Shown: positions 27,072-54,772 of the stretch, piece by piece
How the letters are laid out: every line of letters begins with the position of its first letter
Position numbering within the stretch: the first letter of the stretch is position 1
From: Oscillospiraceae bacterium
Lineage (GTDB): Bacteria; Bacillota; Clostridia; Oscillospirales; Ruminococcaceae
DNA: 64,000 bases
Direction of reading: 5' to 3'
Assembly (NCBI GenBank): GCA_017829005.1
Contig: JAGAJF010000148.1
Location: forward strand, 838-64,837
Program-made: the position numbers and the translations under genes
Notes under the pieces: generated by a model
Seen by the model: only the letters and a program-made list of their open reading frames with translations
Databases searched by the model: none
What the model was told of the DNA's origin: nothing

Positions 27072-27137
27072 CTTTATATTTATGTTTTATTCTGAACAGT
27101 TCGGTGCTTTTAAAAGAATAAATAATAAATAATAAAG
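27072..27137 (+). repeat. AAAGAAT-type AT-rich hairpin element, empty form, upstream of pfk
   Basis: Left arm ctttatatttatgttttattct; right arm agaataaataataaataataaag; 21-nt loop. Confidence 0.6.
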
Positions 27138-27163
27138 AATAAACGTAAAAAGGACGGTATCAT

Positions 27164-36611: not shown

Positions 36612-36684
36612 CTTTATGATCTTCTTTTTTTAATGCAAAGGGACACTTTTATTTAAAGAATAAAGAAAAAAGAATAAATAAAAA
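36612..36684 (+). repeat. AAAGAAT-type AT-rich hairpin element, empty and degenerate, between argB and argD
   Basis: ttctttttt(36622-30) pairs with aaaaaagaa(36666-74); right arm aaagaataaagaaaaaagaataaa. Confidence 0.5.
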
Positions 36685-36714
36685 ATTATAATATATGGCA
36701 AGGAGCTGATACAA

Positions 36715-48057: not shown

Positions 48058-48284
48058 AACATATACGCTCTCCTTTTCTTTGTTATTATAATTATAGTAT
48101 AATATATTCCGAAAATCTTGTCAATGCCAACGGGGATTGCATTTCAATTTTGTAGGATATCCTCAAAACACGCTGACAATGCGGCTTGAAATAGTGCAAG
48201 GCTATGATTTTAATGCATTTCACTTGAAAACTGTTTCCTGTGTGGTATAATTAGTATGACAATGTATGCATACAAGTCGAACAA

Positions 48285-48487
48285 TTTAATAAAGGCAAGC
48301 GGTGCCCCGGCGGGCTTTTCTGTCCGGTCCGGGGGTAAAAGGGAAACAGGTGAAAATCCTGTGCGATCTCGTCACCGTGATAAGGGAGCGAACGGGCAAA
48401 GCCTTGAAAAAAGGCAGTCACTGACCATAGCGGTCGGGAAGACGTCCCGTAAGTGCTGATCTTTAAGCCGGGAAACCTGCCGCTTGT
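48285..48487 (+). ncRNA. Cobalamin (AdoCbl) riboswitch
   Basis: GGTGCCC..AAAAGGGAAACAGGTGAAAATCCTGTGCGATCTCGTCACCGTGA, GTCACTG..GGGAAG, AAGCCGGGAAACCTGCCG; SD-sequestering hairpin cctccg/cggagg plus T tract before cbiK. Confidence 0.93.
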
Positions 48488-48649
48488 CTGTACAGAGTTT
48501 AAATACTCAAGATCACGAGGTATTGATCGTACATATCGGACACCGCCAAAAATTTTTTAAATGGCGGGGGTCTTGTTTGCTGTACCCTCTTTACGTATCG
48601 TAGGAGGGCATTTTTTGTCAATACCTCCGAAAAAACGGAGGAGTTTTTT

Positions 48650-51853: not shown

Positions 51854-52867
51854 ATGAAAAAGGAGACAAAGCGGTATATCTTGGGCTACACTATCCTTGT
51901 GCTGCTCCTGCTTTTCCTTATGGCGGCAAGCCTTTTTTCGGGCAGCGTCAGCTTTTCCCCCGAAGAGGTCATAAAAGTCCTTACGGGAGCGGAAAGGGGA
52001 ACCACAGCCGCAAATATCATACTCTCCATACGCCTGCCGAGAATGCTTGCGGCAATGGTGCTTGGGGGCGGACTTGCGGTTTCGGGATATCTTTTACAGA
52101 CCTATTTTGCAAATCCCATTGCGGGACCTTTTGTCTTGGGAATATCCTCGGGGGCAAAGCTGACGGTTGCAATGGCGATGATATTTTTTCTGCAAAGGGG
52201 AATTCCCCTTACCTCGGGAGCGCTTATCATATCCTCATTTGCAGGCTCAATGCTGTCCATGGGCTTTATCCTTGCGGTGTCACCAAAGGTCAAGCGAAGC
52301 TCTATGCTTGTGGTGTGCGGCGTTATGATAGGCTACATCTGCTCGGGAATAACCGATATTGCGGTCACATTTGCGGACGACTCCAATATCGTCAATCTCC
52401 ACAGCTGGTCAATGGGCAGCTTTTCGGGAATAGATTCGGAAGATGTGAAAGCCTTTTCACCCGTAATATTTATCTGTCTCGGGGCGGCATTTCTGATGTC
52501 AAAGCAGATAAACGCATACCGCCTGGGAGAGGTATACGCACAAAGCTCGGGGGTGAATATCAAGGCGTTCAGAGTGGGGCTGATACTTGTCTCAAGCCTG
52601 CTTTCCGCCGCCGTGACCGCATTTGCGGGGCCTGTTTCCTTTGTAGGGATAGCCGTTCCTCATCTTATCAAAAAGCTTTTTAAAACTGCCGACCCGAAGC
52701 TTATTATCCCTGCCGCATTTCTGGGGGGAGGGGTATTTTGCCTTATGTGCGACCTGCCTGCAAGGATACTTTTTGCCCCCTCGGAGCTTAGCATAAGCTC
52801 GGTAACGGCTCTTGCGGGTGCGCCTGTGGTCATAAGTATAATGGCTGGGCGGCACCGAGAGCAATGA
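51854..52867 (+). CDS. FecCD/BtuC-family ABC permease
   Basis: IRLPR, ANPIAGPFVLGISSGA, GPVSFVGIAVPH. Confidence 0.92.
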   Translation: MKKETKRYILGYTILVLLLLFLMAASLFSGSVSFSPEEVIKVLTGAERGTTAANIILSIRLPRMLAAMVLGGGLAVSGYLLQTYFANPIAGPFVLGISSGAKLTVAMAMIFFLQRGIPLTSGALIISSFAGSMLSMGFILAVSPKVKRSSMLVVCGVMIGYICSGITDIAVTFADDSNIVNLHSWSMGSFSGIDSEDVKAFSPVIFICLGAAFLMSKQINAYRLGEVYAQSSGVNIKAFRVGLILVSSLLSAAVTAFAGPVSFVGIAVPHLIKKLFKTADPKLIIPAAFLGGGVFCLMCDLPARILFAPSELSISSVTALAGAPVVISIMAGRHREQ

Positions 52868-52870
52868 CTC

Positions 52871-52913
52871 CTTTATTATTTATTCTTTTTTATTTATTCT
52901 TTATTCTTTAAAG
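52871..52913 (+). repeat. Left arm of the AAAGAAT inverted repeat flanking the inserted gene
   Basis: ctttattatttattcttt(52871-88) and ttctttattcttt(52897-909) are exact reverse complements of 53609-26 and 53595-607. Confidence 0.85.
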
Positions 52914-52998
52914 CTATGTTCCGGGCGGCGGTTGAATTTTGCGGATAAATATGATATAATACCCAAAAAGAGAAACGCTGAATAAATCAAATTGCAAG

Positions 52999-53011
52999 CA
53001 GGCTCAGCCTG
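52999..53011. repeat. Core palindrome CAGGCTCAGCCTG of the dispersed element
   Basis: Exact 13-mer in the leader of the inserted gene. Confidence 0.75.
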
Positions 53012-53034
53012 TTTTAAAACTGCGAGGAAAAACT

Positions 53035-53631
53035 ATGCCTGAAAAATCATTTAAAATATATCAGATATCTGCCGGCTGGATAATGGGATATATCAGCGAC
53101 GGGGAAAACACCATTTCCTTTTGCGCAAGCTATCTTTCAAATTTTCTTGATGATCTTATGTCGGGACTGATATACATTCTCGGCAGATCGCCCCGGGACG
53201 AGCCGAAAAACTCATTCAGAGTGTTTGAGGAGCCTGCATATTCAATATGGAATATGGGAACTTCAAGCGAGCAGCTCATATTTCACGCTGTGACCTATGA
53301 ATCTCAGAAATCCGATAAAGAAATTGATAATAAAACCGTACAGATCAAAAAAGAAACATTCATAAATGATCTAATTGATGAAATGCAGGATATCCTGCAG
53401 CGTTTTGGTTTGTATGGCTTTCGTTTTGAATGGGGATATGAATTTCCCCTTAGCTTATTCCTGCAATTAAAAGACATAAGAGATAAAACACAGCTGCTTA
53501 CATTATCGGAAAAAGACGGCTCCCATAATTTGGGCTTAGAATATTGTTCTTCAAGCTTTGAATGTGAGTGTGAGTTTTTGACGGACTTATCCCAAAAGAA
53601 TAAAGAAGAAAGAATAAATAATAAAGAATAA
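53035..53631 (+). CDS. AT-rich hypothetical protein inserted between the ABC permease and ATPase
   Basis: GAGG SD; TATAAT at about 52955; C-terminus KNKEERINNKE is encoded by the repeat arm. Confidence 0.7.
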   Translation: MPEKSFKIYQISAGWIMGYISDGENTISFCASYLSNFLDDLMSGLIYILGRSPRDEPKNSFRVFEEPAYSIWNMGTSSEQLIFHAVTYESQKSDKEIDNKTVQIKKETFINDLIDEMQDILQRFGLYGFRFEWGYEFPLSLFLQLKDIRDKTQLLTLSEKDGSHNLGLEYCSSSFECECEFLTDLSQKNKEERINNKE

Positions 53632-53635
53632 AGAA
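53595..53635 (+). repeat. Right arm of the AAAGAAT inverted repeat
   Basis: aaagaataaagaagaaagaataaataataaagaataaagaa. Confidence 0.85.
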
Positions 53636-53674
53636 CCCGGTTTTTTGAAATTGCAAAAAGGAGGAGGGTGCAGA

Positions 53675-54772
53675 ATGCAGGAAACAGTCCTTACCGCCAA
53701 CGACCTTGCGGTGGGCTACGGCTCGGAAATACTCATTGACAATATCCGCATATCCCTCCTCCCGGGGGAAATAGTCACCCTCATAGGACCCAACGGCGCA
53801 GGAAAATCCACTATACTCAAAACCATTTCCCGACAAATAAAACCCCTTGGCGGAGCCGTTTATATTGGTAAAGAGGAGCTTGCCGCTTTCAAGGGTGAGG
53901 AGCTTGCAAAAAAAATGTCCCTGCTAATGACGGTGCGGACAGACCCCGAGCTTATGACCTGCCGTGAGGCGGTGGGTGCGGGCAGATATCCTTATACGGG
54001 CAGGCTTGGCATACTTTCTCCCGAGGATAAGCGTGCGGTGGCTGAGGCAATGGAGCTTACAGATGTGTCATTGCTTGCGGACAGGGACATTTCCCGAATA
54101 AGCGACGGACAGCGGCAAAGGGTAATGCTTGCGAGAGCTATATGTCAGGAGCCAAAAATACTTGTCCTTGACGAGCCCACCTCATTTCTTGATATCCGCC
54201 ATAAGCTCAAGCTCCTTGACATTCTCCGCCGACTTGTACGTGAAAAGGGGCTTGCGGTGATAATGTCAATGCACGAGCTTGATATGGCGGAACGTATCTC
54301 CGACCACGTTATATGCGTGGGGAACAATGGCATTGAGGGGCAGGGAACACCCGAGGAAATATTCACAAAGGAGCGGATAACTGCTCTCTACGGCATTGAA
54401 AAAGGCAGCTTCGAGGAACGCTTCTGCACAGCGGAGCTTGCTCCTCCCACGGGCGAACCGAGAGTGTTTGTAATTGGCGGAAACGGCAGGGGAACGGGAG
54501 TGTTCCGCAGGCTCCAGAGGCTTGATATCCCCTTTGCGGCGGGAGTTATCCACGAAAACGACATTGATTTTCCTGCGGCAAAGGCACTTGCGTCAAGGGT
54601 CATATCCGAAAAGCCCTTCGAGCCTGTTTCGTATGAAAATGAGCAGGCGGCAAGGGCGCTTATTGACAGCTGTGAACAGGTCATCTGCAGTATTGACAGC
54701 TTCGGCTCTATGAATGCCGCTAACGGCAGGCTGAGAGACTATGCCGAAAAACAGGGGAAACTTAGAAAATAA
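53675..54772 (+). CDS. ABC transporter ATP-binding protein with C-terminal extension
   Basis: GPNGAGKST, ISDGQRQR, LDEPT; AAAGGAGGAGG SD. Confidence 0.92.
   Translation: MQETVLTANDLAVGYGSEILIDNIRISLLPGEIVTLIGPNGAGKSTILKTISRQIKPLGGAVYIGKEELAAFKGEELAKKMSLLMTVRTDPELMTCREAVGAGRYPYTGRLGILSPEDKRAVAEAMELTDVSLLADRDISRISDGQRQRVMLARAICQEPKILVLDEPTSFLDIRHKLKLLDILRRLVREKGLAVIMSMHELDMAERISDHVICVGNNGIEGQGTPEEIFTKERITALYGIEKGSFEERFCTAELAPPTGEPRVFVIGGNGRGTGVFRRLQRLDIPFAAGVIHENDIDFPAAKALASRVISEKPFEPVSYENEQAARALIDSCEQVICSIDSFGSMNAANGRLRDYAEKQGKLRK

What the first reader, a model, noticed from the sequence alone, without database searches (positions are those of the whole stretch)
52871..53635. Foreign gene inside the B12 operon is enclosed by AAAGAAT inverted arms; empty versions of the hairpin occur at two other junctions
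Seen: 18-bp and 13-bp perfect inverted matches bracket a ~690-nt insert (promoter-like -10, CAGGCTCAGCCTG palindrome, AT-rich 198-aa ORF), starting 4 nt after the permease stop and ending about 40 nt before the ATPase start. Related U-rich/A-rich arm pairs with only short loops lie before pfk (27072-27137) and between argB and argD (36612-36684), always with the A-rich arm downstream next to an SD. Inference: a cassette system in which a heptamer-repeat stem is the landing or excision site. In mRNA the ~31-bp stem would loop out the passenger, like an rRNA intervening sequence, and could be cut by RNase III, making the insertion tolerable. No dedicated mobility gene is visible.
Basis: partly seen in the sequence, partly recalled or inferred. 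Interest (0 to 1): 0.65.

Follow-up and report, generated by a model that had tools for sequence, protein, structure and literature searches.

The report
Heptamer-armed gene insert in B12 operon
A small foreign gene with its own promoter sits between two genes of a vitamin-B12 uptake operon, flanked by inverted copies of an AT-rich 7-base repeat that is scattered through this gut bacterium and a few close relatives. The cassette idea is only partly supported, and how the repeat spreads remains unknown.

Summary
Arms of 39-40 nt built from tandem AAAGAAT/TTTATTC heptamers bracket a 198-aa ORF that has its own promoter. The insert lies between a BtuC-like permease and a BtuD-like ATPase, downstream of a cobalamin riboswitch.

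The arms belong to a dispersed family: about 48 arm clusters in this Huintestinicola-like genome, roughly 14 of them short-loop hairpins. Only 5 of 30 species of the genus carry the family; it also turns up in other gut and rumen Oscillospirales.

Empty alleles exist, but they are tight 20-nt junctions with no hairpin. One sister species (G010) holds a different gene at the same junction. A second hotspot, glyA-rarA, shows the same pattern.

Against a dedicated cassette system:
- This is the only loaded pair in the genome.
- Partner arms pair no better than non-partner arms.
- Arms also flank core genes, in every relative orientation.
- Distant homologues of the cargo carry no arms.
- No mobility gene, target duplication, inversion or excision was seen.

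This scan has noted heptamer-armed foldback elements before on other DNA. This genome also carries a 23S-rRNA-IVS-protein gene between inverted heptamer arrays of another sequence.

The parts
48283..48498 (+). Cobalamin riboswitch heading the operon
   Evidence: Rfam RF00174, 108 bits, E 4e-26
51854..52867 (+). BtuC/FecCD-type ABC permease; its stop lies 4 nt before the left arm
   Evidence: PF01032 E 7e-77; best NCBIfam match BtuC, below that model's cut-off
52871..52910 (+). Left (T-rich) arm: about five and a half TTTATTC-type heptamers ending in the family's inner end TTCTTTAAA
52932..52960 (+). Sigma-70-like promoter of the cargo (TTGAAT-17-TATAAT with an extended TG)
   Evidence: 10 of 12 hexamer positions match plus TG. 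AAATATGATATAAT is this genome's usual -10 context, seen at 8 promoters
52999..53011 (+). Small palindrome CAGGCTCAGCCTG followed by TTTT. It matches the core of a second dispersed repeat (66-nt unit) and is absent from the G004 leader
53035..53631 (+). Cargo ORF, 198 aa, conserved hypothetical protein; the last ~12 codons are encoded by the right arm
   Evidence: No Pfam, NCBIfam or PHROG family. 15 homologues, 37-100% identical. AF2 model pLDDT 88.7. Weak PUR/Whirly/CdiI-like fold matches, E 5e-3, TM 0.37-0.48
53595..53635 (+). Right (A-rich) arm: about six AAAGAAT-type heptamers
53657..54772 (+). SD (AAAGGAGGAG) and BtuD-type ABC ATPase (ATG 53675)
   Evidence: PF00005 E 2.5e-29; best NCBIfam match corrinoid ABC ATPase, below cut-off. 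Start placed by alignment with relatives
27072..27143 (+). Gene-less copy before pfk: degenerate T arm, short loop, A arm 27113-27143. Absent in G010 and G020
36655..36685 (+). Solo A arm between argB and argD. Absent or replaced in G004, G017, G010 and G020

Best explanation
The 765-bp segment is a horizontally acquired accessory gene with its own promoter. It became fixed between btuC and btuD in one subclade of a Huintestinicola-like genus. Its two arms are ordinary copies, one per side and inverted, of a subclade-restricted dispersed repeat built from tandem AAAGAAT heptamers.

That repeat mostly occurs as gene-less foldback hairpins (T arm, 15-70-nt variable loop, A arm) and as solo arms in intergenic spacers. 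So this element is the rare gene-bearing form of a heptamer-array foldback repeat. It is the same structural class as cyanobacterial STRR-like heptamer repeats and the inverted heptamer arrays that bracket 23S-rRNA-IVS-protein genes. It is not a locus-specific palindrome and not a dedicated landing pad.

Shown:
- The tight 20-nt operon spacer seen in the arm-less species was replaced by a block that brings its own promoter and a new SD for btuD.
- Arm length varies by whole heptamers between genomes.
- Arm-bearing spacers are hotspots where small genes differ between species.

Inferred:
- Blocks spread by recombination or spacer replacement, not cut-and-paste transposition.
- Whole-heptamer length changes arise by replication slippage.
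- In the operon transcript the arms can pair and loop out the cargo.
- The internal promoter lets btuD be transcribed independently of the B12 riboswitch.
- Cleavage of the stem by RNase III is possible but untested.
For: - Family: about 48 arm clusters in G000, with about 14 T->A pairs having 15-71-nt loops.
- Lineage restriction: 84, 59, 25, 10 and 9 motif hits in G000, G004, G017, G010 and G009, and none in 25 other species of the genus. The family is also present in other Oscillospirales MAGs.
- Empty alleles: G020, G006 and G007 have permease TAA + 20 nt + ATG with no arms.
- Same cargo, site and orientation in G004, G017 and more than 10 metagenome contigs.
- A different cargo at the same junction in G010.
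- Second hotspot glyA-rarA: three arm-free empty alleles and two alternative small ORFs beside arms.
- A gene-less hairpin block with its own SD replaces a 17-nt spacer in G000 relative to G004 and G010.
- Whole-heptamer length differences between genomes.
- Foreign origin of the cargo: low GC, not found in 199 other genomes of the family, and distant homologues sit in unrelated contexts.
- The RNA minimum-energy fold pairs the arms.
- The same architecture in another heptamer sequence surrounds a PF05635 gene in this genome.
Against: - No mechanism of spread was observed. There is no target-site duplication, no transposase or RAYT, and hairpin loops are not conserved in G000.
- Every filled allele, even in the arm-poor G010, starts with the inner end of a T arm (TTTATTCTTTAAA). 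That fits arms arriving together with the cargo as one unit.
- The order of events (cargo first, arms first, or together) cannot be resolved, because no hairpin-only or arm-less filled allele of this junction was found.
- There is no RNA evidence for arm pairing or cleavage.
Confidence: 0.5

Rival explanations
1. Mobile insertion cassette: the arms are terminal inverted repeats, the gene-bearing form is a passenger cassette (MIC-like), and the hairpins are its MITE-like derivatives. All would be moved in trans by a transposase that is not assembled or not recognised.
For: - Arms and cargo are both missing from the empty alleles.
- The T->A order dominates among short-loop pairs in G000.
- The family expanded in a restricted lineage.
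- Every filled allele starts with the T-arm inner end.
- In rumen MAGs the same arms form about 110-nt elements with a conserved loop and conserved flank, like true MITEs.
Against: - No target duplication.
- Loops are not conserved among G000 copies.
- No multi-copy ORF and no Y1 transposase in G000.
- Insertions replace the old spacer and do not simply interrupt it.
- Solo arms are gained on their own.
- The cargo is found at only one site.
Confidence: 0.17
2. Landing pad and cassette exchange: a gene-less hairpin first occupies a spacer. Cargo then enters its loop, either by double crossover in the two arms with arm-flanked donor DNA or by repair of a break in the extruded AT-rich hairpin. 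Cargo can later be swapped.
For: - Alternative cargo at the same junction in G010 versus G000, G004 and G017, with remnants of both arms kept.
- Alternative ORFs between the same outer arms at glyA-rarA.
- The cargo sits exactly where other copies have their loop.
- One hairpin in G004 holds a unit of another repeat family in its loop.
Against: - No hairpin-only allele of this junction was found.
- No arm-flanked donor copy of any cargo was found. Cargo B and the cargo A homologues lie in arm-less contexts.
- Only two loaded loci were seen among the listed arm positions of the five arm-bearing genomes.
- The arms are only about 40 nt and imperfect.
Confidence: 0.15
3. Functional RNA or DNA element: the arms are kept because the long AU stem is processed (RNase III) or insulates operon segments, or because a lineage-specific protein binds the heptamer arrays. 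Its place around the cargo would then be selected and not incidental.
For: - The minimum-energy fold of the 791-nt transcript pairs the arms (z -5.3 for the whole fold).
- Hairpins in other lineages fold at -25 to -58 kcal/mol.
- 23S rRNA IVS stems are cut by RNase III (PMC4990558).
- Arms often abut terminator stems or SD sequences.
Against: - Partner arms show no pair-specific complementarity.
- 25 of 30 species of the genus do without the arms at the same junctions.
- Arm length and presence vary freely between sister species.
Confidence: 0.12
4. Invertible (phase-variable) segment: the inverted arms allow the promoter-bearing cargo to flip.
For: Inverted repeats bracket a segment that contains a promoter.
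Against: All 13 independent contigs or genomes with this cargo have the same orientation. No invertase is adjacent. The same arms mostly have 15-70-nt loops, which are too short to invert.
Confidence: 0.03

Closest known systems
23S rRNA intervening sequences carrying an S23p/IVP ORF (Coxiella, Leptospira; PMC4990558), and the heptamer-armed intergenic cassettes noted earlier by this scan
   Same: - A small ORF lies between inverted arms that can form a long stem in the transcript of a host gene or operon.
- Gene-less foldback copies exist alongside gene-bearing ones.
- In this genome a PF05635 gene is bracketed by inverted heptamer arrays.
   Different: - The host is an mRNA operon, not 23S rRNA.
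- The cargo is not a PF05635 four-helix protein and has its own strong promoter.
- The heptamer is AAAGAAT, not AACAGTT.
- RNase III cleavage is untested here.
Cyanobacterial STRR (short tandemly repeated repetitive heptanucleotide) sequences (own knowledge: Mazel et al. 1990)
   Same: Dispersed intergenic arrays of tandem heptamers, lineage-specific, function unknown.
   Different: A different phylum and different heptamers. Here the arrays are typically paired in inverted orientation, and one pair encloses a gene.
MITEs / Correia elements / mobile insertion cassettes (MIC231 of Bacillus cereus; own knowledge)
   Same: - Inverted arms, many copies, intergenic or intra-operon sites.
- Hairpin formation in co-transcripts (Correia elements are cut by RNase III).
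- MICs carry a passenger gene between IS-type ends.
   Different: - No target-site duplication, no cognate transposase and no conserved internal sequence in this genome.
- The arms are tandem-repeat arrays of variable length, not fixed TIRs.
REP/REPIN elements with RAYT transposases
   Same: Extragenic hairpin-forming doublets, tens of copies, lineage-specific.
   Different: No Y1/RAYT gene in the genome. The arms are not themselves palindromic and carry no GTAG-type head.

Membership tests
MITE / mobile insertion cassette (TIR transposon derivative) | Terminal inverted repeats | tested here: met
   39-nt arms, 87-94% complementary
MITE / mobile insertion cassette (TIR transposon derivative) | Target-site duplication at the insertion | tested here: not met
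   Filled versus empty comparisons at btuC-btuD, C109, C118 and C115 show replacement of the old spacer and no flanking direct repeat. The only ambiguous case is an ATAAAGA repeat at the pfk site
MITE / mobile insertion cassette (TIR transposon derivative) | Copies share internal sequence | tested here: not met
   Hairpin loops in G000 are unrelated, apart from one larger duplication (C11/C65). Rumen MAG copies do share a loop
MITE / mobile insertion cassette (TIR transposon derivative) | Cognate transposase with the same ends | tested here: not met
   No ORF family with 3 or more copies in G000. The only T->A multi-heptamer pair with a long interval is this one. The genome is a 94%-complete MAG, so absence is not proven
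REP/REPIN-RAYT | RAYT (Y1_Tnp, PF01797) gene in the genome | tested here: not met
   No match in G000, while the control genomes do match
Integron gene cassette / attC | Cassette array next to an intI/attI platform; promoterless ORF followed by attC | tested here: not met
   A single insert inside an operon. The cargo has its own promoter and lies between the arms, not beside a complete hairpin. intI was not searched for
23S rRNA IVS-type cassette | Inverted arms able to form a long stem in the host transcript | tested here: met
   The minimum-energy fold and part of the centroid pair the arms
23S rRNA IVS-type cassette | Cargo of the S23p/IVP family (PF05635) | tested here: not met
   No Pfam hit for the cargo; the model is a mixed beta/alpha fold. 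The one PF05635 gene of G000 lies elsewhere (C9), with other heptamers
23S rRNA IVS-type cassette | Excision from the transcript by RNase III | not testable with these tools
Inverton (invertible promoter segment) | Both orientations present in populations | tested here: not met
   One orientation in 13 independent assemblies. A read-level test was not possible
STRR-like heptamer repeat | Dispersed intergenic arrays of tandem heptamers | tested here: met
   22 or more AAAGAAT arrays of at least 4 units, plus one 190-nt array

The most novel reading that the evidence does not exclude
AAAGAAT-armed foldback hairpins are the empty form of a gene-capture and exchange system that needs no dedicated recombinase and works in Oscillospirales operons. 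Cargo would enter or be swapped between the arms, as suggested by the G010 versus G000 alleles and by glyA-rarA. The long AU stem would then be cut by RNase III, so the passenger is excised from the operon mRNA much as an IVS is excised from 23S rRNA. That would make insertions inside essential operons tolerable.
Probability: 0.17. Interest if true: 0.75.

Novelty: new variant of a known kind. Interest (0 to 1): 0.42.

Why it matters
Heptamer-array foldback repeats (STRR-like) have long been known and remain unexplained. Here one such family is caught at species-level resolution. It is present in 5 of 30 species of a genus, with filled, empty and alternatively filled alleles at two junctions, one of them inside a riboswitch-controlled operon. 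That gives a workable system for three questions: how these repeats spread, whether they mark hotspots for small accessory genes, and whether the stem lets a foreign gene sit inside an operon without harm. If the IVS-like reading is right, it links rRNA intervening sequences to a general mRNA-level phenomenon. If not, this is an ordinary accessory gene next to ordinary selfish repeats.

Tried and rejected
- **REP/RAYT:** no Y1 transposase.
- **IS hunt:** all-against-all comparison of ORFs of at least 150 aa found no family with 3 or more copies.
- **Shared cassette leader:** the 13-mer shared by the G000 and G010 leaders is simply the genome's consensus extended -10, not homology.
- **Interior of the insert** is single-copy in the genome.
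- **Plasmid and phage collections:** no match.
- **Literature search** for the arm sequence: no paper.
- **Pair-specific complementarity** of partner arms: none.
- **Cargo B of G010 as a translocated arm-flanked cassette:** its homologues in 19 other genomes of the genus; the five loci read lie in arm-less, varying contexts.
- **Arms next to distant cargo homologues:** none.
- **Empty-site test for the IVP cassette on C9:** the whole region has no orthologue in five relatives.
- **Cargo function:** only weak PUR/Whirly/CdiI-like fold matches, so no function is assigned.
- **My third fold** used wrong coordinates and should be ignored.

Full report
**1. What is there**

The window belongs to contig C110 of a 2.88-Mb, 46% GC MAG. 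Its closest named relatives are Huintestinicola sp. and 'Oscillospiraceae bacterium' MAGs.

A cobalamin riboswitch lies at 48283-48498. Downstream of it are a NEAT/Ig-like lipoprotein, a Peripla_BP_2 binding protein, a FecCD/BtuC-like permease (51854-52867) and an ABC ATPase (ATG 53675). The 'B12 operon' label is therefore reasonable.

Between permease and ATPase lies an 807-nt spacer containing:
- a T-rich arm at 52871-52910;
- a promoter-like TTGAAT-17-TG-TATAAT at 52932-52960;
- a small palindrome at 52999-53011;
- a 198-aa ORF at 53035-53631;
- an A-rich arm at 53595-53635, which overlaps the last ~12 codons of the ORF.

The arms are 39 nt at 87% complementarity (32 nt at 94%). The motif is far above chance in the window: 13 hits against 0.26 expected. 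GC falls to 35-43% inside the insert, against about 50% in the flanks.

**2. The arms are a dispersed, lineage-restricted repeat family**

In the whole genome I found about 48 arm clusters made of tandem AAAGAAT/AAATAAT heptamers. The inner end is conserved (TTTAAAGAAT) and the outer end is often GAATAAATTATAAAG. About 14 clusters form T-arm/loop/A-arm pairs with loops of 15-71 nt. The only pair with a long interval (683 nt) is the one under study. There is also a 190-nt tandem array on C55.

- Loops are unrelated between copies.
- About half of the arms abut GC-rich terminator stems, and about a quarter abut an SD/ATG.
- Arms also flank core genes (prmA, rubrerythrin) and occur as T..T and A..T pairs.
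- Partner arms are no more complementary to each other than to arms from other loci: mean score 17.7 against 20.2. For the loaded pair, 9 of 22 non-partner comparisons score at least as high.

Within the genus the 17-mer (up to 1 mismatch) gives 84, 59, 25, 10 and 9 hits in G000, G004, G017, G010 and G009. It gives none in 25 other species, and the reversed control pattern gives 0-1 hits.

Outside the genus the family appears patchily in other Oscillospirales. In several rumen 'Ruminococcus sp.' and Acutalibacteraceae MAGs it forms A-arm/loop/T-arm hairpins with a conserved loop (GGCGTTTCTGTAT) and a conserved flank. These fold at -25 to -58 kcal/mol. That variant is absent from G000.

**3. 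Filled, empty and alternatively filled alleles**

| Genomes | State of the btuC-btuD junction |
|---|---|
| G004 (92% identical), G017 (96%), more than 10 metagenome contigs | Same cargo, site and orientation; arms differ only by single bases or one heptamer |
| G020, G006, G007 (about 80% identical flanks) | Permease TAA, 20 nt with an SD, ATPase ATG; no arms at all |
| G005, G021, G019 | Equally tight junction, no arms |
| G010 (90-93% identical flanks) | A different gene: 107 aa, pyrophosphatase-like (PF00719, E 2e-4, below cut-off). It has its own consensus promoter, a two-heptamer T-arm remnant (TTTATTCTTTAAAG) and a degenerate A-arm end |

That pyrophosphatase-like gene is a single-copy small gene in 20 of 30 genomes of the genus. 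Elsewhere it sits in varying contexts without arms.

A second hotspot, glyA-rarA, behaves the same way:
- G002, G044 and G021 have only the glyA terminator.
- G017 has a T arm, a 91-aa Zn-ribbon/TM ORF and an A arm.
- G004 and G010 have that ORF with a short T arm and no A arm.
- G000 has hairpin, a 121-aa ORF, hairpin.
- G009 has hairpin plus that ORF.

Gene-less copies are equally dynamic. The pfk and argB-argD copies are missing or replaced in sister species. A 183-nt hairpin block with its own SD replaces a 17-nt operon spacer in G000 relative to G004 and G010. In none of these comparisons did I find a target-site duplication. The old spacer is replaced, not interrupted.

**4. The cargo**

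The ORF is a real, conserved protein. There are 15 homologues, 37-100% identical, with 21 invariant residues. No Pfam, NCBIfam or PHROG family matches.

It was not found in 199 other genomes of the family. Its distant homologues lie after LRR-protein genes or in arrays of GNAT and NUDIX genes, without arms.

An AlphaFold model is confident (pLDDT 88.7). Foldseek gives only weak matches to PUR-alpha, Whirly, MRP and CdiI immunity folds (E 5e-3, TM 0.37-0.48). I assign no function.

**5. Mobility**

No Y1/RAYT gene is present, and there is no multi-copy ORF family. The insert has no match in the plasmid or phage collections, and no paper holds the arm sequence. No inverted or excised form appears among 13 assemblies.

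**6. Link to earlier notes of this scan**

The scan has noted this kind of element before on other DNA. Notes on other genomes describe heptamer-array foldback repeats as gene-less forms of cassettes that carry a 23S-rRNA-IVS protein gene (PF05635), and compare them with cyanobacterial STRRs.

I tested this lead here. G000 has one PF05635 gene (C9:17728-18024, 100 bits). It is indeed bracketed by inverted arrays of another heptamer, AACAGTT (33 nt, 85% complementary), with an extra direct array downstream. In G000 only these two heptamers form arrays of at least four units in more than two places. AAAGAAT is dispersed; AACAGTT occurs only at that cassette.

None of the other arm-bearing genomes has a PF05635 gene. 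The C9 region has no orthologue in relatives, so no empty site could be examined there.

This supports placing the AAAGAAT element in the same structural class. It does not show that the cargo or the mechanism is the same. RNase III excision is documented for the Coxiella IVS (PMC4990558) and is only an analogy here. The RNA minimum-energy fold of 52860-53650 does pair the arms.

**7. Verdict**

The best reading is an accessory gene with its own promoter that is fixed in a hotspot and flanked by inverted copies of a lineage-specific heptamer-array foldback repeat. It is the rare gene-bearing form of that family. My confidence is about 0.5.

The cassette readings stay open, each at roughly 0.15-0.17: a MIC-like unit, or a landing pad with cargo exchange.
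- In their favour: every filled allele begins with a T-arm inner end, and cargo differs at the same junction.
- Against them: there is only one loaded pair in this genome; no donor copy, target duplication or mobility gene was found; and arms are gained on their own.

The element is a new variant of a known but unexplained kind (STRR/IVS-like heptamer foldbacks) and is of moderate interest.

Noticed in passing
G000:C26:56040-56440; G000:C159:36400-36590; window 52999-53011, about 15106, about 57137: A second dispersed repeat family: a 66-nt unit holding the palindrome GCAGGCTGAGCCTGC and CGGCTCGGTAACG, in tandem runs of up to six units. About 32 copies of its GTTCTGTAATTTATTC core occur in the genome. 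Units often lie next to AAAGAAT arms, and once (G004:C8, L031 593-730) inside a hairpin loop.
   Followed up: partly
G000:C9:17614-18092 (L216 1388-1867): A 23S_rRNA_IVP (PF05635) gene of 118 aa between inverted arrays of AACAGTT heptamers, in an intergenic site after a histidine-kinase-like gene. It is present only in G000 among six genomes checked, and its surroundings have no orthologue in relatives.
   Followed up: partly
G000:C115:66796-67404 (L034 1490-2110): The glyA-rarA spacer is a hotspot. Among the species read it is 79-125 nt where empty and 452-695 nt where filled, with larger intervals of roughly 0.8-3 kb implied by flank matches in species whose spacer was not read. It holds a Zn-ribbon/TM ORF, a 121-aa ORF, or nothing.
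   Followed up: partly
G000:C55:23875-24064: A 190-nt uninterrupted tandem array of AAAGAAT/AAAGAAC/AAAGATT heptamers, followed by a GC stem.
   Followed up: no
G000:C5:3980-5250: A 1.2-kb ECF sigma / anti-sigma gene pair, present in G000 but not in G017, is flanked by a direct duplication of a ~45-nt terminator hairpin. This is a different way of inserting genes beside an AAAGAAT hairpin.
   Followed up: no
L119 1393-1486, L132 1068-1163, L144 127-209, L176 7021-7119, L179 2372-2466: In rumen 'Ruminococcus sp.' MAGs the same arms form A-arm/loop/T-arm elements with a conserved loop GGCGTTTCTGTAT and flank CACTTACGTG.GGGGCTTA. This is a MITE-like variant of the family with the opposite arm order.
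   Followed up: partly
L009 2190-2513 (G010); G000:C100:11791-12108: A small pyrophosphatase-like gene (107 aa), single-copy in 20 of 30 genomes of the genus, lies in a different neighbourhood in almost every lineage examined. In G000 the reading frame runs on into the downstream P-loop kinase-like gene (275-aa ORF).
   Followed up: partly
window 53582-53600 compared with L001 5540-5575: A one-base difference in a T run (5 versus 6 T) decides whether the cargo protein ends before the arm (189 aa, G004) or reads about 12 codons into it (198 aa; G000, G017 and others).
   Followed up: yes
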